IMG/VR virus record: IMGVR_UViG_3300032038_000053
Location: 13,788-77,787 of that record
Length of the DNA: 64,000 bases
Reading direction: 5' to 3' (one strand)
Source: a virus
Lineage: Duplodnaviria > Caudoviricetes
The notes beneath the pieces are model-generated. The model saw only the letters and a program-made list of their open reading frames with translations, made no database searches and had not been told where the DNA came from. Position numbers and translations under genes: made by a program. Positions 23,076 through 32,692 of the stretch are shown one piece after another (within the stretch, counting starts at the first letter, position 1; every line of letters starts with the position of its first letter).

Positions 23076-24854
23076 TTACTTATTTGAAGAGCTCAGCTTC
23101 AGTGGTACATCAACAGTTGACACTGTGATGTTAGTAGCTGTTCTCTTGTCAGTATTGGGAATCGGTGCATCAACGATATGACGAAGTACGCCATTATCAC
23201 CCTTCTCCGTATGCATGTGAACAGAGTAGTCCACAATATGACGGAATCCAAGAGCTTTTGACGATTCATCCTCATGAGAGATTACCAGCATTGTGCATCC
23301 ACGGGTCTCTCTGTCGATGACATCAATAACCTTTTCCTCGGTACAATACTCATCATCACGCAACCAACGGGTACGCTTGTCCAGTGCACTTGTTACCTCA
23401 TCCAGCATGATAATATCAGATGTGTTACGAACAGGATTCACAACACCTTTCTGGTAATTGCGGATATGGATAAAGAGTCTCATCAGACTGATACGAGATG
23501 CTTCGCCACCAGATGGATGAACACCTTCACCTAAGATGATAGTATCCAATCCATCAGGAAGAGCACGCAACCAGTCACCCATGCCGATGTCATCAAGCAA
23601 TTGTTCAATCACCGTATCCGGCACGTATTTATTACCCAACGTAATGTTGTTACGAAGGGTATCATACAAAAGTTCTGTCTTCTGGTGGATATAAAACACT
23701 CTAACATCCGGGGGTGTAGAGCCTTCCATTTCTCCAGCAAAGAACTTGAACAATGTTGATTTACCAACCCCTGAAGCAGCTTCGATTCTGTATCTCTTAC
23801 CACGTTTGATTTCCAATTCAGGAATCAGATAAGGATTCTTAATCTCCGTATCAGAAGCATAATGGAATCCAATATTCTTGAGAACCAATCTCTCAGGCAT
23901 AACTGGCTTTTCTTGGTATTCGACATCGTCACCTTTCAGCTTGTTGATGACTTCGTTACAACCATCAATTTCAGACTGATTAGCAACATAGTCAGTGATG
24001 AGTCCAACCATGTTGTTGATTGTCCATTCATTGAATGCGATGAAGAGTGCTAACGATGTATCATTATTAGCAAATGCGACATACAATGCCAACACACAAG
24101 GCACATTGATGAGGAAGTTGAAGAATCCCTCATACAAATTCTGTGCCGGATTGTTGCATGCAGGTGCGCATTCATATTGAACCTCTTCCTGAGTGGACAT
24201 CGCATAATCGTCAGCACCCATATATTTAAGCATTTTTACTGCTTCAAAATTGGATACTGTCACCTGATGCATATGACCTTTGAGCTCAGCCTTCACGGTG
24301 TCGCATTTCAGAAGCTTATTGCCATTCAGATAGCCAACAATGCAAAATACCATGATGACAACCATTGCAATTGCCGTTGCCGGAGAGAGTTTGAAGATTT
24401 CCCAGACAACAATAGCAAACGGAATCAGCGCCTGAAGTGTTGCCAAGATAGTTGCTGCCTGTCCGGACTTGAGGCCAGCAATTTCAGAAGTTGTATTCAT
24501 AATACTTCCAACACCAACTTCGGTAATGTCGGAGATTTTGGACTTGAGCGCCTTCTGGAAAATCTTCAGGTACCAGCTGTCGCATACATTAAGCTTGAAA
24601 GCTTTCAGAATGTAACGATAAAGAATGGATACAGCAGGAATGGCGATATTTAACAGGATAATCGAACGCATGATATTGTCGTTCATTCCATCACCAATTT
24701 CCTTGTACACAGAACTCTGATGCTTCGTGAGAATACCTAGGACAACCGCCAATCCAATATTCATCAATGCCAGTACCACCTGTGGAATCTTATGCATGAT
24801 GATATGGGAAATTTTCCACTGTGCAGATTCCGTAAACTTGTTTTTCTTTTTCAT
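23076..24854 (-). CDS. ABC transporter, fused transmembrane + ATPase domains
   Basis: several TM helices; Walker A ASGVGKST, Q-loop YIHQ, signature PSGGE, Walker B IMLDE..SALD, H-loop ISH; start MKKKNK with SD AAGGAGG. Confidence 0.9.
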   Translation of the reverse strand: MKKKNKFTESAQWKISHIIMHKIPQVVLALMNIGLAVVLGILTKHQSSVYKEIGDGMNDNIMRSIILLNIAIPAVSILYRYILKAFKLNVCDSWYLKIFQKALKSKISDITEVGVGSIMNTTSEIAGLKSGQAATILATLQALIPFAIVVWEIFKLSPATAIAMVVIMVFCIVGYLNGNKLLKCDTVKAELKGHMHQVTVSNFEAVKMLKYMGADDYAMSTQEEVQYECAPACNNPAQNLYEGFFNFLINVPCVLALYVAFANNDTSLALFIAFNEWTINNMVGLITDYVANQSEIDGCNEVINKLKGDDVEYQEKPVMPERLVLKNIGFHYASDTEIKNPYLIPELEIKRGKRYRIEAASGVGKSTLFKFFAGEMEGSTPPDVRVFYIHQKTELLYDTLRNNITLGNKYVPDTVIEQLLDDIGMGDWLRALPDGLDTIILGEGVHPSGGEASRISLMRLFIHIRNYQKGVVNPVRNTSDIIMLDEVTSALDKRTRWLRDDEYCTEEKVIDVIDRETRGCTMLVISHEDESSKALGFRHIVDYSVHMHTEKGDNGVLRHIVDAPIPNTDKRTATNITVSTVDVPLKLSSSNK

Positions 24855-24926
24855 CGTATTTCCTCCTTTGATTCGATGAAAGTGCGGGCCCTTGTGACAG
24901 AAGGGCCCTGGGTTGATATTCATACA

Positions 24927-25666: not shown

Positions 25667-25687
25667 TCATATTAATAGTACATATAT
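25667..25687 (-). promoter_or_regulatory. putative phage early promoter (identical copy at 28116..28136)
   Basis: 21-nt exact repeat ATATATGTACTATTAATATGA (- strand) upstream of a gene cluster. Confidence 0.6.
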
Positions 25688-25775: not shown

Positions 25776-25848
25776 TTGTGGAGAAGAGATTCGAACTCTT
25801 GCATGCATGCTCCAAGGGCATGTGTCTTCACCGCTTGACTACTCCACA
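25776..25848 (-). tRNA. tRNA-Gln(TTG), atypical C33
   Basis: 7-bp acceptor, Gln-type D loop, stem CATGC/GCATG with loop CCTTGGA, T loop TTCGAAT. Confidence 0.8.
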
Positions 25849-25859
25849 TTTTATATTGA

Positions 25860-25929
25860 TGGGCCTACAGAATCGAACTCTGATAACTCGGTTATGAGCC
25901 GAGGGGTCTAACCATTGATCTATAGGCCC
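25860..25929 (-). tRNA. tRNA with CAT anticodon (Ile2/Met type), T arm 2 nt short
   Basis: acceptor GGGCCTA/TAGGCCC, anticodon arm CTCGG-CTCATAA-CCGAG. Confidence 0.75.
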
Positions 25930-25984
25930 ATGGGCTAACATAGAAAAATTACAACGAAGGTGATACTCTATTGTTCATAGAGTA

Positions 25985-26220
25985 TCGACCGTCGAGGGAT
26001 GCTTCGTCCTCCGCAAACCGTCTGTCATTTCACGTCCGGCTGATCAAGCTACACGTTCAACGTGAATACACAGTGCATCTGACCTATCCTAATTCGTAGA
26101 CTATTCAACTTCTACCGGATACACGACACTTGGAGCTACCGCGTGTTGGAATTCAGCCTCCTCATTGCTCGAGCTCACATGCCTATTCATGTGGTATTTT
26201 TATGATTCAGCTTCGGTCGA
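25985..26220 (-). ncRNA. candidate structured ncRNA of unknown family
   Basis: GC-richer spacer between tRNAs closed by TCGACCG/CGGTCGA, with several nested helices; strand inferred from neighbours. Confidence 0.55.
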
Positions 26221-26250
26221 AAAAAATATCTTACCACCAATTCAGGTGGT

Positions 26251-26336
26251 TGGTGCCGGATACAAGATTTGAACTTGCATGCTACAATAGCGCTCCGTCT
26301 TAAGCGGAGTGTGTCTGCCAATTTCACCAATCCGGC
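26251..26336 (-). tRNA. tRNA-Leu(TAA)
   Basis: cloverleaf with long variable arm, loop CTTAAGA, encoded CCA. Confidence 0.93.
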
Positions 26337-26406
26337 ATATGTGGAGATTGGGGGTCTCCACATCGCGAAAAGGATTAACGCCCGAAAGCATGTTGTTAAT
26401 CCCGAG

Positions 26407-26491
26407 CGCTGAGGGTGGGATTCGGACCCACGGGCCGTTAGGCACAGAAGATTTCAAGTCTACGCTCTTATGACCACTTGAGCACCTCAGC
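26407..26491 (-). tRNA. tRNA-Ser(TGA)
   Basis: acceptor GCTGAGG/CCTCAGC, loop CTTGAAA, long variable arm, G discriminator. Confidence 0.88.
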
Positions 26492-26533
26492 AAATGTATC
26501 TATTAGTATATAAAATAAATTAAGAAAATAAAA

Positions 26534-26563
26534 AAATAACCGGAGATTTCTCTCCGGTTATTT
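26534..26563 (-). terminator. terminator ending the Cas7-like/array transcript
   Basis: AAATAACCGGAGA-GAAA-TCTCCGGTTATTT then T run on - strand. Confidence 0.8.
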
Positions 26564-26570
26564 CGGTTAA

Positions 26571-27364
26571 ATACGTGACGTAACTGAACTTAACCATGCT
26601 ATACCAATGCATCACTGTACATACCATGCTATGCCATAACTGTACCTCACGAAGCTCAGCTATACCTTCACATTACAGTATCAGGCTTTGCTAAACTCAG
26701 CTGTACCAGTACCATACATCACCCATCATAACTCAACCAAGCTTAACCATTGCTCAACCATACTTGACTGCGCATCACCATGACACCACTCAACCAAACT
26801 CAGCTTTACCTTTGCCAAACACAGCATGACTAAACTCAATAATGCAGTACATTACCAATACAATACACACTTCACATTACGTTACCATATACTACTTTAC
26901 TAAGCCATTGCTTTACGATACTTCGATTTCCGATGCTATACCATTACTGAACTAAGCCTGACTTCACGGTGCATCATCTCACATCGCCATGCCATTACCC
27001 TACGTTACTAAACTACACCAAGCATTACTATGCCATTGCGATACACTACCCAGCTTTACCTTTGCTAAACACAGCATGACTAAACTACATAATGCAGTAC
27101 CGTTACCAATACCATACCATGCTTCACACTACTTTACCAAACCATTGCTTTACCACATACTACTTTACTAAGCCATTGCGGCACCAAACATAGCATTACT
27201 ATACCATTGCAATACATGACTAAACCAAACTAGACCTTTCACCACGTTACCTTGCCTTGACATAACTCAACCTAACTTTACCTTGACTTAGCCTTGCTTC
27301 ACTTTGCATTACACTACAAAACCAATACTATGCCAAACTACACTAGCAGAGCTACGCCATACCA
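26571..27364 (-). repeat. non-coding array of ~150 degenerate pentamers NGY-NN; candidate guide-RNA array
   Basis: - strand parses as GGT AT GGC GT AGC TC ... AGT TA CGT CA CGT AT; begins right after the RAMP stop codon, ends at terminator. Confidence 0.9.
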
Positions 27365-28009
27365 TCACTTGATGTGCTTGGAATAGTTACCACCAATCAC
27401 AGCATCGTCATTTTCTTCGTCGAGGAGTTCCCAAACGAATTTTCCTTTACCGGAGTTTCTCCATTGACCTGTGCCATGATAGTAACCATAATCCAACCAT
27501 TCTTCAATGAGTTTCTCGTCGGAATCAACCATCAGATGAATAGTGAATGTTGAATTGCTCATAGCAGGAATTGTTTCAGAGCAAGCAAGCGAGACACGCT
27601 CTCCCTGAGGTGTCTGCGCACGGAGTGGTCTCTGGCAGAGTGTAATCTCGCCACTCGGTTCAATAACACACTGACGTTCATTGATGAAGATGAGTCCATC
27701 AATCTGCTTCTTGAATGCCTTGACCTTGGAAGTAGCAGTGCCAGGAATCTTACGCATAAACGAAGCAGTTTCCTTGAAATAACCCTTCCACTGATAGTCG
27801 TAGAGGAACGGCTTTCCATCTTCAGTGCGAGGGAATACCGTTGTGCCCTTTTCGAGGGTTTCGTCAATACCAACAGCAGCGATTTCATCTTCGATTGTTG
27901 CTGCGTCTTCGGACTTTGATGCGATGAAATCCTTATAGATTTCCTTGGAGTTAGGAGCAGTACCGAGGAGCTCCTCAATAAATGTTACACGGATTTTCAT
28001 GTCTTTCAT
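27365..28009 (-). CDS. stand-alone Cas7-like RAMP protein
   Basis: N-terminal strand ending ELLGTAP, KGYFKE helix, internal thumb-like hairpin RPLRAQTPQGERVSLA.SE, C-terminal Gly-rich loop GTGQWRNSGKGKF. Confidence 0.8.
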   Translation of the reverse strand: MKDMKIRVTFIEELLGTAPNSKEIYKDFIASKSEDAATIEDEIAAVGIDETLEKGTTVFPRTEDGKPFLYDYQWKGYFKETASFMRKIPGTATSKVKAFKKQIDGLIFINERQCVIEPSGEITLCQRPLRAQTPQGERVSLACSETIPAMSNSTFTIHLMVDSDEKLIEEWLDYGYYHGTGQWRNSGKGKFVWELLDEENDDAVIGGNYSKHIK

Positions 28010-28115
28010 AATTAATCTTTCCTTTCTTAATTGGGCTATGATTCGGATATTCGGACTATATTAAACAGGGATAGTGAATTGTATTTCCCTGGAACTAAAT
28101 ATGATATTTGTGATA

Positions 28116-28136
28116 TCATATTAATAGTACATATAT
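28116..28136 (-). promoter_or_regulatory. putative phage early promoter upstream of the Cas7-like gene
   Basis: identical 21-mer to 25667..25687. Confidence 0.6.
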
Positions 28137-28176
28137 GAAAAATATAAAAATACAAATTTTGTATGGTAACCGGAAA

Positions 28177-28827
28177 TTACAGTTTGAAACGATCTTCCAA
28201 AGATTCACGTTGACAGTACTCAATCACATATGGTATTAAATCAACATGTGTTTCACAATAATGATCAATAAAATAATCGATATACGAAACAGGTATCTGC
28301 TTGATACAATCGAATTTGTTTTGTTCTACAGATTCTTTGATTAACGGGATAATTACCTTTTCAATATAAAGAGTTGTACGTGAACTCTCCGGATCAAAAT
28401 GTTCAAACCAATCTAATGTACACTCTGGAATCTCACCACGTTCCACAAACCATTTGATCAAATGCTCCCGCATGGGATCTTCCAGTCTTCCATATTGCAA
28501 AAACACTTGTGTGGTCACGACAATATCATACAATTCACGTGGTGTAATAAAATCCGATGTTTCAATTCCATGAAACTCAAATTCAAATCTCTTTTTCCAT
28601 TTCGGGAGATGCATTAATTGATCTTCTAAATCAATCATCATGTGAATCAGTGAGAAATAAATATCACCACTAGGAGTATGTTGATATGTCCCATCATTAC
28701 TAATACAGGTTTTCATTGAAACATGATTGATCATTTGTTCATACATTTGTACTTTGTGATTGATCAATCCCATTCCATCGGGTATACATTTACTGGTTTC
28801 CGGACTCAAGAAGTCGTACATAATCAT
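28177..28827 (-). CDS. hypothetical protein
   Basis: 216-aa ORF, SD AAGGAAG. Confidence 0.7.
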   Translation of the reverse strand: MIMYDFLSPETSKCIPDGMGLINHKVQMYEQMINHVSMKTCISNDGTYQHTPSGDIYFSLIHMMIDLEDQLMHLPKWKKRFEFEFHGIETSDFITPRELYDIVVTTQVFLQYGRLEDPMREHLIKWFVERGEIPECTLDWFEHFDPESSRTTLYIEKVIIPLIKESVEQNKFDCIKQIPVSYIDYFIDHYCETHVDLIPYVIEYCQRESLEDRFKL

Positions 28828-28954
28828 TTCTTCCTTTCGTTTAAAAGTAATTTAACGTGATGAAACAATAAAGAATTAAATTTGATTGGGGCCAATGGCC
28901 CCAATCACAATTCAGTATAGGAAGTAATGTACCATATGAGCAGTTAGGTACAAT

Positions 28955-29039
28955 TGGTGCTGCTTGTGAGACTTGAACTCACACGTCTTTCGACACAAGA
29001 TCCTAAATCTTGCACGTCTGCCTATTCCGTCAAAGCAGC
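28955..29039 (-). tRNA. tRNA-Leu(TAG)
   Basis: loop TTTAGGA, long variable arm, encoded CCA. Confidence 0.93.
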
Positions 29040-29116
29040 TTCATCCCGGATGGTAGTCAAGCATCCGGGTTATTACGAAAGGAAGGCTCATCTACAATGG
29101 CAGGTCATCGTAGATA

Positions 29117-29192
29117 TGGCGCCCACTGATGGACTTGAACCATCGACGCATCGGTTAACAGCCGATTGCTCTACCGTCTGAGCTAAGCGGGC
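29117..29192 (-). tRNA. tRNA-Asn(GTT)
   Basis: canonical cloverleaf, loop CTGTTAA, encoded CCA. Confidence 0.95.
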
Positions 29193-29305
29193 AAAAAGAC
29201 GGTGGTATGTTTTCATACCACCGGACAGAACAAACTAATTTTACTTTAAAGGAGTCTAAAAGCTAAGAAAAATTTAAAAAGGAAATCTTATTATGAATAA
29301 AGCTT

Positions 29306-29441
29306 TTCTGAGAATATTGGCAACTGGAATACCAATTTAATGATTTTAGATGCCAAACTGGTAAAAGCATCATGCATCAGACGTTGAATGGAGCGATGCT
29401 ATGTATGTGAAAAAGAAGTAGCCAGTTGCTCTGCATCAGAA
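29306..29441 (-). ncRNA. Y RNA (Yrl)-like element, copy E
   Basis: TTCTGA-TGCAG-AGCAACTGG-CTACTTC ... CCAGTTGC-CAATATTC-TCAGAA. Confidence 0.7.
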
Positions 29442-29500
29442 ATTATAAAAACATATTCTAGTTCGAGAGGGTTTGAATATGCGTTTATCGTATTTAATAG

Positions 29501-30103
29501 TTACCAAGTAAATGCGTAACCAAGACCGTTCTTGAGATCAGAACGAAGGGGATCTGCAAATGTTGCCTTGTTTTCCAGACCGTTTACAGTAACAATTGCA
29601 AACTTCTGTGTTGGTTCAGCTGTTACAGGTGTTACTTTTGCAGCAAAGATGTAATTAGTACCCTTCACTACCTGAGTACCTAACAGAGCAAACGGCTCAA
29701 CCTTAGAACCAACAAAGCCTTCGAAAGTCTTATCGAATACAGTCTTTGCATCTTCGGAGATTTCAGTCTTGACATCAACAACTGTTCCACCAAGACCAGT
29801 ACCACCTTCAACAACTCTTTCGATATTGACAATTGCAAAGTCGTTGCCCTTTTCATTGAGAATTACCAGAACAACATTCTTGGTATCTCTACCAGTGATA
29901 ACAACTTGTTCTGCGAGAATGGCATGATTTGTACCATTCACAACCTGAGAACCAAGATAAGCAATTGGTGTATACTGAGCACCAAGCAGCTCACCAAGCT
30001 TTTCAGTAAATGCGGAAGAAACTGTAGCAACCTTCTGTGGCATTGAGCCTGTTGTCATATCGACAATCTCGACATTCCATGTACCTACTGACATATGAAT
30101 CAT
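29501..30103 (-). CDS. tandem cystatin-like (QxVxG) two-domain protein
   Basis: internal duplication: LGSQVVNGTNHAILA and LGTQVVKGTNYIFAA. Confidence 0.6.
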   Translation of the reverse strand: MIHMSVGTWNVEIVDMTTGSMPQKVATVSSAFTEKLGELLGAQYTPIAYLGSQVVNGTNHAILAEQVVITGRDTKNVVLVILNEKGNDFAIVNIERVVEGGTGLGGTVVDVKTEISEDAKTVFDKTFEGFVGSKVEPFALLGTQVVKGTNYIFAAKVTPVTAEPTQKFAIVTVNGLENKATFADPLRSDLKNGLGYAFTW

Positions 30104-30129
30104 CTCCTAAAATAAATAAATTTAATAAA

Positions 30130-30209
30130 GTCTGAGAATAATACAATTGGCGTTAGATGTAACCGAATAAATGTTTCTGTTAGAAGTATCCAATTGTGCT
30201 GCATCAGAC
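30130..30209 (-). ncRNA. Y RNA (Yrl)-like element, copy D (minimal)
   Basis: GTCTGA-TGCAG-CACAATTGG-ATACTTC ... CCAATTGT-ATTATTC-TCAGAC. Confidence 0.7.
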
Positions 30210-30221
30210 ATCTATTTTGAA

Positions 30222-30305
30222 TTCGAGCATTTTGATATCGGTTTGGCTATAGATAGTGTTGGCAACATATAAATCTTTTGAAGTAACCGATAATCCTGCT
30301 TCGAA
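30222..30305 (-). ncRNA. Y RNA (Yrl)-like element, copy C
   Basis: TTCGA-AGCAG-GATTATCGGTTACTTC ... AACCGATATC-AAAATGC-TCGAA. Confidence 0.65.
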
Positions 30306-30571
30306 ATTCATTTTAAATTAACTGAGATGGCCGTATCTCATTCTAGGAGGTCAACCTGATGGACTATGATTATGCGTGTAAGAATATAAATCATCCAACC
30401 ATCTCAGTTTGTGGTAGCTGTTTTTTCCTGTCTTTAACGCCCTCTTCGATAAACAGCCAAAACGTCATGCGCCCGTCTTTTCAACTTGCTGGCCACCAAG
30501 CGATAGGCCGAACCCACATCCTATCCCGTACCCCTCGCAGCTTCCTTCTAATGATACTTTCTCGCATCACA

Positions 30572-32245
30572 TTATTGTGATGCTTCTATATTATCCCATT
30601 GCTTAATGTATTCGTTTGCAAATGAGATTTCTTTGCCAGTCCAACCAGTCATGATTGCACAACGATAAGCCATGATTGGCATTACAGTATTGTCATAACC
30701 AGCTGTCTGAATACAAAATACATTCAGCTTTGGATTAATCTTTTTACGATATGTTTGGATTAACTTGTATACATCGATGTGCTGTCTACCGGTAAAACGT
30801 GGTCCACATCCATATCCCATCTTTGAATATGCAGCAATATCGGAATGTTCACCATACAATCCACCAGTACCAGCTTGCATATCGGAATAAATAAAGAGAT
30901 TGTCAATGTGTTCTTTGTTCTTAATAGCACGCCATAAGTATTTCCAAATACCACCTTCGGTTGCTCCGCCAACATCATCACATTGACCCTTATCAATCTT
31001 ATGAGCCTGACTCAGAACACCCTTTCTCTTTGAGATTGGATATGCAATATACCGATCACCAAACTTAACAGCATCCCCTTCATCAGAACAAGCGCATGCC
31101 AATACAGCTGACAGATTGTCAATATTGGCAACACGAACAATTCCATATTCCGATACAAATCTACCCCAAGCAGATCCACTATTATCAGACAGAGCAACTG
31201 TTCTACCACTCAGATGTGGAAAGTTATCAACGGCAATATCAATGCATTCTTCCAAAGCATCTAAAATCATTTGTTTGTGATTGATCACATCTGTACATTC
31301 ATCAATCGCTGTATAAGCGGATGAATAACGGAACGGGAATTGTTTACCATCTGGAACTCCATCTTTCAGTTTCTGTAAGATACGTTTACAAGTATCCATA
31401 TCACTGATTTCTTTGAAGATGTTACGGAGGTTTCTCAATAATGCCATATGACCAATATCAATTGTGTGAAGAATATCAGCCCATGTTGCACCATCGGATC
31501 TCAACTGTTCCCATGTCTTTTGTTCATTAACCACGTTAACAGTACCAGTCTTCATCAGCTCGTTAATGACTGTTGAATTGGCATGGCATAAACGAACAGT
31601 ATTGATCATGCCGATTTCGAAGTTTTTATATTTGTTAATCTGAACAGGTGATAATGCCTCCAAACGATCTGCCATAGAACGTTTCAAAATAGAAGGCATT
31701 TGATTCTTCTTACCATCATTCAGCCATAAATAATAAGCAGCTTGCATTGCTGGTTCATCAGGTCTTTTCATTACCTTATATTCTAACTGTCTGAACAAAC
31801 CAGGATGTGTTTTGTTGAATTCAGCACGTTTTGGATGAAGTGCTGCACGAACCATGATGACCTGAGGATTCAATCTCATGTAATAAGTATTGCGTAAATG
31901 AACTGCCAAACGAATTGTCGCTTCATAATCATAATCCAGCGCTTTGTCAATCACATCGGTGAAGAATTCAGTTGCTGTCTTTTTATTGTATTCCGGGAAT
32001 AATGCATCAGTAATCAGATCATCAATCAAATATACGGAATCATGTGAATAATGAAATCCACCACTACTACAATAGAATCCGCCACTACGATAATACTGTG
32101 CTTCTCCAAAGATGGAAGAAGCTGCAACAAGCTGTAATGTCTGAATGGGATTTAATTTGTAACTAATTCCATTCATAAAGTTTGTTGTAGCACCAAGGGA
32201 TTCTTCTTTTTTCTGATTAGAGACTGCTCTTGAAATCTTACTCAT
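30572..32245 (-). CDS. rsr: Ro60/TROVE-domain RNA-binding protein with vWA domain
   Basis: HEAT-like TROVE region (LRNTYYMRLNP, HMALLRNLRN, KQFPFRY) and MIDAS SDNSGS; C-terminal IQTAGY. Confidence 0.92.
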   Translation of the reverse strand: MSKISRAVSNQKKEESLGATTNFMNGISYKLNPIQTLQLVAASSIFGEAQYYRSGGFYCSSGGFHYSHDSVYLIDDLITDALFPEYNKKTATEFFTDVIDKALDYDYEATIRLAVHLRNTYYMRLNPQVIMVRAALHPKRAEFNKTHPGLFRQLEYKVMKRPDEPAMQAAYYLWLNDGKKNQMPSILKRSMADRLEALSPVQINKYKNFEIGMINTVRLCHANSTVINELMKTGTVNVVNEQKTWEQLRSDGATWADILHTIDIGHMALLRNLRNIFKEISDMDTCKRILQKLKDGVPDGKQFPFRYSSAYTAIDECTDVINHKQMILDALEECIDIAVDNFPHLSGRTVALSDNSGSAWGRFVSEYGIVRVANIDNLSAVLACACSDEGDAVKFGDRYIAYPISKRKGVLSQAHKIDKGQCDDVGGATEGGIWKYLWRAIKNKEHIDNLFIYSDMQAGTGGLYGEHSDIAAYSKMGYGCGPRFTGRQHIDVYKLIQTYRKKINPKLNVFCIQTAGYDNTVMPIMAYRCAIMTGWTGKEISFANEYIKQWDNIEASQ

Positions 32246-32280
32246 ATGGATATTCCTCCTACATAAATAAATTTATAAAA

Positions 32281-32441
32281 AATTCCGAGAATATTAGAAA
32301 GAGTTTTTATGGGCACTAGAGGCCATCTAGTTTTCGTGGCTAAGTTTTACATGTATATGCCACGTTTACATGGAGCTTTCGGCTCAGAGAAGAGTAAATC
32401 CTATTATCTTCTGAAGTAACTCTTTTCTCTGCTTCGGAATT
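32281..32441 (-). ncRNA. Y RNA (Yrl)-like element, copy B
   Basis: AATTCCGA-AGCAG-AGAAAAGAGTTACTTC ... AACTCTTTCT-AATATTC-TCGGAATT, enclosing four hairpins. Confidence 0.72.
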
Positions 32442-32448
32442 ACTGGAT

Positions 32449-32559
32449 ATGTGTGAGAATGTTGGACCTGTTTCTTGTAGGACTCGAACCCACATAGTTA
32501 CCTAAACACAGTAATGATTAACCATAAATCGAAGTAACAGAGTCCTCTGCTTCACACAT
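32449..32559 (-). ncRNA. Y RNA (Yrl)-like element, copy A, with tRNA-like cloverleaf
   Basis: same terminal motif enclosing D arm GATT-TATGGT-AATC, anticodon-like arm TTACT-GTGTTTA-GGTAA and T arm GTGGG-TTCGAGT-CCTAC. Confidence 0.78.
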
Positions 32560-32597
32560 TGGTCGAAGTGACAGGGCTTGAACCTGCGGCCTCTCGT
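32560..32597 (-). pseudogene. 3' half of interrupted tRNA-Pro (variable loop, T arm, acceptor strand, ACCA)
   Basis: ACGAG-AGGCC-GCAGG-TTCAAGC-CCTGT-CACTTCG-ACCA; acceptor strand pairs with 5' half at 33555..33590. Confidence 0.8.
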
Positions 32598-32617
32598 TTT
32601 GAATATTGTTAAATTTA

Positions 32618-32692
32618 TCGGGATAACCCGGATCGAACGGGCACGATGTCCAAATCCCAAATTTGGCGGCCTACCAGTTGGCCCATATCCCG
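32618..32692 (-). tRNA. tRNA-Pro(TGG), intact
   Basis: CGGGATA/TATCCCG acceptor, CCAAA-TTTGGGA-TTTGG anticodon arm, no encoded CCA. Confidence 0.9.

What the first reader, a model, noticed from the sequence alone, without database searches (positions are those of the whole stretch)
26534..28136. Stand-alone Cas7-like RAMP gene with a downstream pentamer-coded RNA array: candidate non-CRISPR RNA-guided system
Seen: promoter-like 21-mer, then a 214-aa protein with RAMP hallmarks (Gly-rich loop GTGQWRNSGKGKF, thumb-like hairpin). Its stop codon is followed with no gap by ~790 nt of NGY-NN pentamers and a strong terminator. No cas1/2/3/5/6 gene and no repeat-spacer array is visible in the window. 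Established: Cas7 subunits polymerise on RNA with a fixed per-subunit footprint. Inference: each pentamer is one subunit footprint; the conserved (N)GY is gripped by the protein and the variable bases are displayed, so they spell a gapped target. From memory this resembles the recently reported phage VIPR systems (Cas7-ancestral protein plus GGY/NN RNA); I cannot verify that here. In this array only GY is fixed and the first base varies (mostly A, also T/G, rarely C), so it may be a divergent variant.
Basis: partly seen in the sequence, partly recalled or inferred. Interest (0 to 1): 0.95.

Follow-up and report, generated by a model that had tools for sequence, protein, structure and literature searches.

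The report
Phage VIPR guide-RNA system, GY-NNN array
A large uncultured phage carries a small Cas7-like protein gene joined to about 155 five-base guide units, which makes it a member of the VIPR RNA-guided DNA-silencing systems described in 2026 preprints: a real system, but a known kind.

Summary

- **Protein:** The 214-aa protein (27365-28009, minus strand) has no Pfam or PHROG match. It models as a one-domain Cas7/Csm3-type RAMP (Z 11.3; Foldseek E 1e-6). Its family profile aligns end to end with the clade of the solved SUSP1 Vipr protein (hhalign E 7.8e-5, probability 62%).
- **Array:** From its stop codon to a 14-bp terminator lies one array (26570-27362). It has 130 pentamers G-Y-N-N-N and 22 hexamers of consensus GYAATG, which shift the register by +1 about every 7 units. 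This gives roughly 22-25 guide-sized runs.
- **Family:** 79 of 80 viral loci that encode a homolog have a 5-nt-periodic array within 1 kb, with the same hexamer punctuation. No conserved accessory gene, cas gene or CRISPR array was found.
- **Prior reports:** The preprints already describe YNNNG repeats, "staggered" arrays and WGT/NN motifs, so this is a new member of a known kind.
- **Targets:** These remain open. One 10-unit guide spells codon positions 1-2 of an SbcD/Mre11-like gene in other large phages, but at a rate no better than controls.
- **Earlier notes:** This scan has already noted VIPR systems on other DNA (174 notes in at least 133 genomes).

The parts
28116..28136 (-). Promoter-like 21-mer ATATATGTACTATTAATATGA, about 107 nt upstream of the vipr start codon
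   Evidence: Two exact copies in the window (28116-28136 and 25667-25687), both upstream of minus-strand genes; 0.01 expected by chance. Promoter function is inferred.
28098..28122 (.). Perfect palindrome (10-nt arms, 5-nt spacer) overlapping the 3' end of the 21-mer; possibly an operator or a 5' hairpin
   Evidence: function not tested
27365..28009 (-). vipr gene: 214-aa single-RRM RAMP (Cas7-like). It has a helical bundle (about 22-46), helix-1 (71-85), a thumb hairpin (123-147) and a G-loop (175-190, GTGQWRNSGKGKF).
   Evidence: No Pfam or PHROG match. The family has 5,863 clusters at 90% identity and 1,704 at 50%.
26570..27362 (-). vrRNA array: about 155 units (130 pentamers GYNNN, 22 hexamers GYAATG, 3 tetramers), forming roughly 22-25 runs of 3-10 units. 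It is C-poor (10% C).
   Evidence: No Rfam family or ribozyme inside it.
26942..26992 (-). A 10-unit guide whose positions 3-4 spell, with one base skipped per unit, 10 codons (IEDD/ETEHFSK) of an SbcD/Mre11-like gene in other large phages
   Evidence: Not above background. A lead only.
26757..26850 (.). Internal duplication of array units; partner copy at 27007-27100 (76% identity over 94 nt), crossing hexamer boundaries
26533..26564 (-). Intrinsic terminator (14-bp stem, 4-nt loop, T run) that closes the vipr-array transcription unit; tRNA-Ser follows at 26406-26491

Best explanation
This is a phage-encoded VIPR (Viral Interference Programmable Repeat) system that consists only of a vipr gene and a co-transcribed guide array.

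**Proposed mechanism** (inferred from the SUSP1 and P. fulva work, not shown here):
- A promoter near 28116-28136 drives one transcript, running through vipr and the roughly 790-nt array to the terminator.
- Vipr protomers bind the RNA one per 5-nt unit. Each holds the fixed G-Y in the G-loop/thumb pocket and displays the bases that follow.
- The +1 junctions (GYAAUG followed by GY) divide the RNA into about 22-25 guides of about 6-8 units (31-41 nt).
- Each guide reads double-stranded DNA of a competing phage or other mobile element through a gapped code. This is probably two read bases plus one skipped base per unit, aligned to codons.
- Binding silences transcription.

**Fit to the relaxed motif:** the G1-reading residues of SUSP1 Vipr (H17, D177) correspond here to a gap/T17 and to Q182. 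The G2/Y3 contacts W178 and R179 are kept as invariant W183 and near-invariant R184. This matches GGY relaxing to NGY.
For: **Fold**
- Every top structural match is a Cas7-type RAMP: Csm3 Z 11.3 (rmsd 3.3 over 159 residues), Cmr4, and type VII Cas7 at Foldseek E about 2e-6.
- The sequence profile hits the G-loop region of Csm4 and Cas7, E 7e-5.

**Homology to a validated Vipr**
- The SUSP1 gene L005:28474-29061 is PDB 36pp, 'SUSP1 Vipr protein'.
- Family profile against family profile gives E 7.8e-5 and probability 62%, with 184 collinear columns over both full lengths.
- Pairwise, the G-loop block gives E 0.002.
- Domain positions in my model lie within about 5 residues of the residues the cryo-EM preprint assigns to the bundle, helix-1, thumb and G-loop.

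**Array**
- The array lies on the gene's strand, abuts the stop codon and ends in a terminator.

**Family-wide linkage**
- 79 of 80 IMG/VR loci have a period-5 array within 1 kb of the gene, against 1 of 80 further away. That one exception is a second array.
- Hexamers far outnumber tetramers in relatives (43:2, 24:0, 20:0, 17:0), with a modal run of 7 units.

**Context**
- The source is a viral record with many tRNA genes, no Cas1 and no CRISPR array.

**Literature**
- The preprints report YNNNG repeats and staggered arrays, WGT/NN motifs, and six-unit guides that work on wobble-aligned targets.
Against: - The homology to SUSP1 Vipr is only moderate (hhalign probability 62%). I could not place the protein in the published seven-type tree.
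- No vap accessory gene was found. The upstream 216-aa gene has no homolog in the 80 related loci and no family match.
- No 3' tail, pseudoknot or ribozyme follows the guides, so guide maturation is unexplained.
- No decoding rule gave more matches than permuted guides.
- In exact scans of the viral collection, one real guide of four gave a hit. So did one of three non-hypothesis patterns.
Confidence: 0.85

Rival explanations
1. It is the same protein-plus-array RNP but with a different reading logic from published type II VIPR. All three variable bases of a unit might be read (a contiguous or 4-nt-period target), or RNA rather than DNA might be the natural target, as for type III Cas7 backbones.
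For: Three positions per unit are variable, with similar information content (0.28, 0.21, 0.18 bits). They also change at similar rates between related arrays (0.146, 0.144, 0.163). The closest structural matches are RNA-targeting Csm3/Cmr4. The cryo-EM preprint shows Vipr can pair with RNA targets.
Against: In the only exact hits found, the third variable base agrees with the target in just 1-2 of 10 units, which is chance level. The contiguous and 4-nt-period rules gave no excess over controls; the contiguous rule also gave none in the family-wide test. Published systems with relaxed repeats are still treated as DNA-targeting VIPR.
Confidence: 0.1
2. The protein is a Cas7 mimic used against host CRISPR (a decoy or anti-CRISPR), and the array RNA is a sponge for a host RNA-binding factor, not a set of guides.
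For: Phages do carry Cas-like decoys. One homolog locus sits next to AcrVA2-like genes.
Against: Strict protein-array linkage in 79 of 80 loci, hypervariable bases between fixed G(Y) anchors and the conserved +1 punctuation fit a guide library, not a sponge of identical sites. The validated relatives act as guides.
Confidence: 0.03
3. The 5-nt periodicity is a DNA-level feature (a curvature, packaging or replication element), or a decaying repeat with no RNA function.
Against: The motif is strand-specific, on the gene's sense strand. The array is bounded by the stop codon and a terminator. The anchor G is conserved between related arrays (4.7% change) while the variable positions change at about 15%. 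The same design recurs in the related viral loci examined.
Confidence: 0.02

Closest known systems
Type II VIPR of Escherichia phage SUSP1 and a Pseudomonas fulva prophage (bioRxiv 10.64898/2026.04.26.720920, 10.64898/2026.04.26.720927 and 10.64898/2026.10.15.759431; PDB 36pp)
   Same: A roughly 200-aa single-RRM RAMP with bundle, thumb and a G-loop of the form G-x-G-x-W-R...G-[RK]-F. It is phage-encoded and has no cas genes. The adjacent RNA is built of 5-nt units with a fixed G-containing anchor and variable bases. The protein profiles align end to end.
   Different: - The anchor is G-Y with three variable bases, not GGY/NN.
- The G1-reading H17/D177 are not conserved here (gap/T17 and Q182).
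- There is one continuous array of about 155 units, not about four vrRNAs of roughly 100 nt.
- Guides are about 7 units, not 9-16.
- There is no 3' tail or pseudoknot, and no vap1-like gene.
VIPR systems with relaxed repeats (YNNNG, NNNGG, NNNNG) and 'staggered' vrRNA arrays (discovery preprint, methods and figs S17-S18), and non-canonical WGT/NN or TGH/NN clusters (bioRxiv 10.64898/2026.10.21.760802)
   Same: YNNNG read in register is GY-NNN. WGT/NN matches the A/T-rich base before G-T here. 'Staggered' arrays, in which successive vrRNAs come from 1-nt overlapping positions, fit the +1 hexamer junctions.
   Different: I could read only the text and figure legends, not the figures or data tables. 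Identity with those clades, and the type number, are therefore unverified. The junction consensus GYAAUG followed by GY-A-W-A does not appear in the text I could read.
Class 1 CRISPR backbone subunits (Csm3/Cmr4, type VII Cas7)
   Same: The best structural matches; RRM core, thumb and G-loop; polymerise on guide RNA with a fixed footprint.
   Different: The footprint is 5 nt, not 6. There is no CRISPR repeat-spacer array, no Cas5/Cas6/large subunit, and no adaptation genes.

Membership tests
VIPR | Minimal single-RRM RAMP protein with G-loop, thumb and helical bundle | tested here: met
   AlphaFold2 model with pLDDT 80. Csm3 Z 11.3; Foldseek E 1e-6 to Cas7-type RAMPs only.
VIPR | Sequence homology to an experimentally validated Vipr protein | tested here: met
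   hhalign of the 50-sequence family profile against the 30-sequence SUSP1-clade profile gives E 7.8e-5 and 184 collinear columns, but probability is only 62%. SUSP1 Vipr identity was confirmed by PDB 36pp. Support is moderate, not strong.
VIPR | Adjacent non-coding tandem 5-nt repeats with a fixed motif alternating with hypervariable bases, on the gene's strand | tested here: met
VIPR | Canonical GGY/NN repeat | tested here: not met
   The repeat is G(95%)-Y(98%)-NNN, and the base before G is only 22% G. The preprints accept relaxed consensus repeats such as YNNNG and WGT/NN, so this does not exclude membership.
VIPR | Protein and array co-occur across homologs | tested here: met
   79 of 80 viral loci have a period-5 array within 1 kb, against 1 of 80 elsewhere.
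VIPR | Not associated with cas genes or CRISPR arrays; viral or proviral context | tested here: met
VIPR | vap accessory gene next to vipr (typical, not universal) | tested here: not met
   No neighbour gene is conserved across the 80 loci, and the upstream 216-aa gene is an orphan.
VIPR type II | Each vrRNA ends in an invariant structured 3' tail (pseudoknot) | tested here: not met
   The array is continuous, with only +1 hexamer junctions and one terminal terminator, and has no Rfam match. It is therefore not type II.
VIPR | vrRNA is transcribed and co-purifies with Vipr | not testable with these tools
VIPR | Guides match natural targets by the two-read, one-skip rule more often than controls | tested here: inconclusive
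   One of four long guides gave exact, wobble-aligned hits (SbcD-like gene). One of three non-hypothesis patterns also gave a hit. Local tests showed no excess.
CRISPR-Cas class 1 | Repeat-spacer array plus Cas5/Cas6/large subunit and adaptation genes | tested here: not met
   No Cas1 or Pfam RAMP match in the 77.8-kb record, and no CRISPR-like repeat in the window. The record is only about 29% of the genome.

The most novel reading that the evidence does not exclude
This very abundant clade of phage Vipr proteins may use a guide format that no experiment has yet characterised. Short guides of about 7 units would be written head to tail in kilobase transcripts. They would be delimited only by a +1 junction (GYAAUG followed by GY, which recreates a canonical GGY at the start of each guide), with no tails, ribozymes or accessory protein. 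If so, filament assembly or register, not a dedicated RNA handle, defines each guide, and one transcript would arm a phage with dozens of guides aimed at conserved catalytic motifs of rival phages, such as the SbcD/Mre11-like nuclease.
Probability: 0.25. Interest if true: 0.6.

Novelty: new member of a known kind. Interest (0 to 1): 0.4.

Why it matters
VIPR was described only in 2026, and the experiments cover a few type II systems with GGY/NN guides.

- **Abundance:** This locus belongs to a much larger metagenomic clade. At 90% identity it has 5,863 protein clusters, against 529 for the SUSP1 clade in the same database.
- **Format:** The clade writes guides differently, with a GY anchor, three variable bases and +1 punctuation, in arrays of 100-300 units.
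- **What this locus offers:** It is a compact natural example (one promoter, one gene, one array, one terminator) for testing three things: how relaxed-motif Vipr proteins hold their RNA, how guides are delimited without tails, and which bases are read.
- **For annotation:** A gene with no Pfam or PHROG match, together with about 0.8 kb of apparently non-coding DNA in large phages, can now be named.

Tried and rejected
1. **Protein family and phage searches.** Pfam and PHROGs gave nothing for the protein. Megablast of the locus against GenBank phages gave nothing. tblastn found only 4 unannotated gut-phage records.
2. **RNA families.** Rfam at gathering and at E <= 1 showed no ribozyme or known RNA in the array.
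3. **Accessory gene.** No neighbour is conserved among the 80 loci. The upstream orphan gave nothing usable in the Atlas.
4. **Triplets as codons.** Reading the three variable bases as codons gave stop-free frames no more often than other frames. Rejected as uninformative.
5. **Cross- and self-targeting.** I tested this phage record against its nearest relative (the 155-kb record G001) under six rules. No excess over shuffled guides.
6. **Convergence on the SbcD-carrying phages.** Only the one 10-unit guide matched (20/20); Fisher combined p was 0.96 and 0.99.
7. **Family-wide test.** 93 guides of 8 or more units, 1.2 Mb of related phage DNA, five rules. No excess.
8. **Exact scans of the viral collection.**
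   - Real guides: 3 hits from one gene family, then 0, 0 and 0.
   - Permuted controls: 0 and 0.
   - Alternative register: 1 hit, not wobble-aligned.
   - The hit pattern also matches unrelated acidic motifs in bacterial genome and metagenome contigs. I therefore treat the SbcD match as a lead, not a finding.
9. **Substitution rates between related arrays.** They separate the anchor G (0.047) and Y (0.108) from the variable positions. They do not separate the third variable base from the other two.
11. **Structure libraries.** The solved SUSP1 Vipr structure did not appear among the listed fold-library matches, so I made no direct structure-to-structure comparison with a Vipr.

Full report
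**1. What is in the sequence**

On the minus strand the layout is as follows:
- A 21-mer at 28116-28136.
- A perfect 10-nt-arm palindrome at 28098-28122.
- A ribosome-binding site and a 214-aa ORF at 27365-28009.
- A G/T/A-rich, C-poor tract that begins at the stop codon.
- A hairpin terminator at 26533-26564, with a 14-bp stem and a T run.
- tRNA-Ser at 26406-26491.

The 21-mer has exactly one other copy in the window, at 25667-25687. That copy also lies upstream of a minus-strand gene. Shuffles expect 0.01 copies. It behaves like a phage promoter element, but promoter function is inferred.

**2. The array is real and unique**

- Base identity at lag 5 is 0.46, against about 0.22 at lags 1-4.
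- A chaining score for units that start with G-Y gives 109.5 for 26570-27362. The highest score in 20 shuffles of 20 kb was 5.
- No other array exists in the window or in the whole 77.8-kb record.
- Dynamic-programming segmentation gives 130 pentamers, 22 hexamers and 3 tetramers.
- In the pentamers, position 1 is G in 95% and position 2 is C/T in 98%. Positions 3-5 carry 0.28, 0.21 and 0.18 bits.
- The hexamers are a different kind of unit. Their consensus is G-Y-A-A-T-G at about 1 bit per inner position, and the first unit after them is also less variable (G-Y-A-W-A).
- Each hexamer shifts the register by +1. It also puts a G before the next G-Y, so every run starts with a canonical GGY.
- The 25 runs closed by a register slip are 1-10 units long, most of them 5-8.
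- A 94-nt block is duplicated at 76% identity (26757-26850 and 27007-27100), so the array has grown by duplication and divergence.
- Rfam finds no ribozyme or known RNA family inside it.

**3. The protein**

- It has no Pfam or PHROG match.
- The family is very large: 5,863 clusters at 90% identity and 1,704 at 50%. Its conserved blocks include CQRPLRA and G-x-GQWRNSG-x-G.
- The AlphaFold2 model (pLDDT 80, pTM 0.76) has, in order:
  - an N-terminal strand;
  - two helices at 22-46;
  - a long helix at 71-85;
  - a beta-hairpin at 123-147 with a disordered tip;
  - a helix at 162-173;
  - a Gly-rich loop at 175-190.
- Foldseek returns only CRISPR RAMPs, led by Csm3 and type VII Cas7 at E 1-3e-6.
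- An aligner that does not rely on Foldseek gives Z 11.3 for Csm3 and Z 11.2 for Cmr4-like chains. Cas7 of types I, III, IV and VII fill the list.
- The family profile also hits the G-loop region of Csm4 and Cas7 by sequence (E 7e-5).

**4. Link to VIPR**

The library holds four 2026 preprints. They report the following:
- **Discovery paper:** Vipr is a minimal phage RAMP. vrRNAs are made of 5-nt repeats (GGY/NN). The target DNA is read two bases on, one skipped. There are seven types, some with relaxed repeats (NNNGG, YNNNG, NNNNG). Some have 'staggered arrays' whose vrRNAs come from positions overlapping by 1 nt.
- **Cryo-EM paper:** there is one protomer per repeat. H17 and D177 read G1. 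R138 and W178 hold G2. R179 and helix-1 residues form the pyrimidine pocket. The bundle holds the skipped target base.
- **Third preprint:** it reports non-canonical motifs such as WGT/NN next to Vipr-like folds.
- **Fourth preprint:** a six-unit guide works on a wobble-aligned catalytic motif.

I then tested the link directly:
- I fetched phage SUSP1 and found its GGY arrays and the 195-aa gene between them. That gene is PDB 36pp, 'SUSP1 Vipr protein'.
- A profile of 50 members of the window's family against a profile of 30 SUSP1-clade members gives E 7.8e-5 and probability 62%. The alignment is collinear over 184 columns.
- The shared C-terminal block alone gives E 0.002.
- In that alignment W178 and R179 correspond to invariant W183 and near-invariant R184. 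D177 corresponds to near-invariant Q182, and H17 falls in a gap next to T17.
- That is the pattern expected if G2 and Y3 are still held but G1 is no longer read, which matches the GY-only anchor. This last step is my inference.

**5. Family-wide linkage**

- In 80 IMG/VR loci that encode homologs, 79 have a period-5 array within 1 kb of the gene: 71 downstream and 11 upstream. Only 1 of 80 has one further away, and that is a second, 294-unit array in the nearest relative.
- The anchor differs by clade: G-Y here, G-C-(A) or G alone elsewhere.
- The +1 hexamer punctuation, with a modal run of 7 units, is common to all five relative arrays segmented.
- No neighbouring gene is conserved across the loci, so no vap is evident. 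The upstream 216-aa gene is an orphan of unknown fold.
- The record has no Cas1 or Pfam RAMP match, and the window has no CRISPR-like repeat.

**6. Targets**

- **Local tests.** I decoded runs as guides under several rules. This phage and its nearest relative do not target each other or themselves. A family-wide test with 93 guides against 1.2 Mb of related phage DNA showed no excess over permuted guides.
- **The one hit.** Exact scans of the viral collection were capped. The 10-unit guide at 26942-26992, read as positions 3-4 plus one skipped base, matched three contigs.
  - All three matches lie in frame in an SbcD/Mre11-like metallophosphatase gene next to an SbcC-like gene.
  - The motif is IEDD/ETEHFSK, just before the GHIH motif.
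  - It occurs in two lineages only about 57-59% identical in protein.
  - The skipped bases fall on wobble positions, and the guide's third variable base agrees in only 1-2 of 10 units.
- **Why I do not accept it as a finding.**
  - Three other long guides gave nothing.
  - Two permuted controls gave nothing.
  - An alternative-register pattern gave one non-wobble hit.
  - The hit pattern also matches unrelated acidic motifs in bacterial genome and metagenome contigs.
  - The other guides do not converge on those phages.
  - The match is therefore a lead compatible with chance. My rough estimate is 0.1-0.3.
- **Substitution rates.** Between related arrays the rates by position are 0.047, 0.108, 0.146, 0.144 and 0.163. 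This confirms the anchor but does not show whether the third variable base is read.

**7. Verdict**

The locus is a VIPR system of a relaxed-anchor, punctuated-array clade. It is not type II, and I could not assign its type. The kind is already published, and this scan has noted it many times on other DNA, so the finding is a new member of a known kind. Three points remain open and would be worth an experiment: how guides are delimited at the +1 junctions, which bases are read, and what the guides target.

Noticed in passing
window 30572-32245 (minus): A 557-aa protein with a TROVE (Ro60-type) domain; it matches PHROG 850, 'RNA-binding protein', at E 6e-41. It lies among tRNA genes about 2.5 kb upstream of the VIPR locus.
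   Followed up: no
window 25776-32692 (minus): Seven tRNA genes (Gln, Met, Leu-taa, Ser, Leu-tag, Asn, Pro) flank the VIPR locus. Rfam adds a borderline tRNA-like match at 32469-32538 (30 bits, cut-off 29) that ARAGORN does not call.
   Followed up: no
window 25667-25687 and 28116-28136 (minus): The same exact 21-mer precedes two otherwise unrelated minus-strand genes. It is probably a phage promoter element shared by a small regulon.
   Followed up: partly
L007 1870-3390 and 4658-5111 (G001:C1:94849-96369 and 93128-93581): The nearest relative is a 155.7-kb phage with terminal repeats and a Vipr 72% identical. It has two arrays flanking the gene, one of 294 units and one of 88 units.
   Followed up: partly
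L002 50-9236: A homolog recorded in a Ruminococcus MAG (206 aa, 62% identical) sits in a prophage-like region with two AcrVA2-like genes upstream and a Cas12f1/TnpB-like gene downstream.
   Followed up: no
proteins P0127 (458 aa) and P0142 (432 aa): Two representatives of the family are double length and match the query in two stretches. They may be tandem-fused Vipr proteins.
   Followed up: no
window 23076-24923 (minus): A 615-aa protein with an ABC-type ATPase domain (PHROG 2392, E 9e-35) lies downstream of the tRNA cluster.
   Followed up: no
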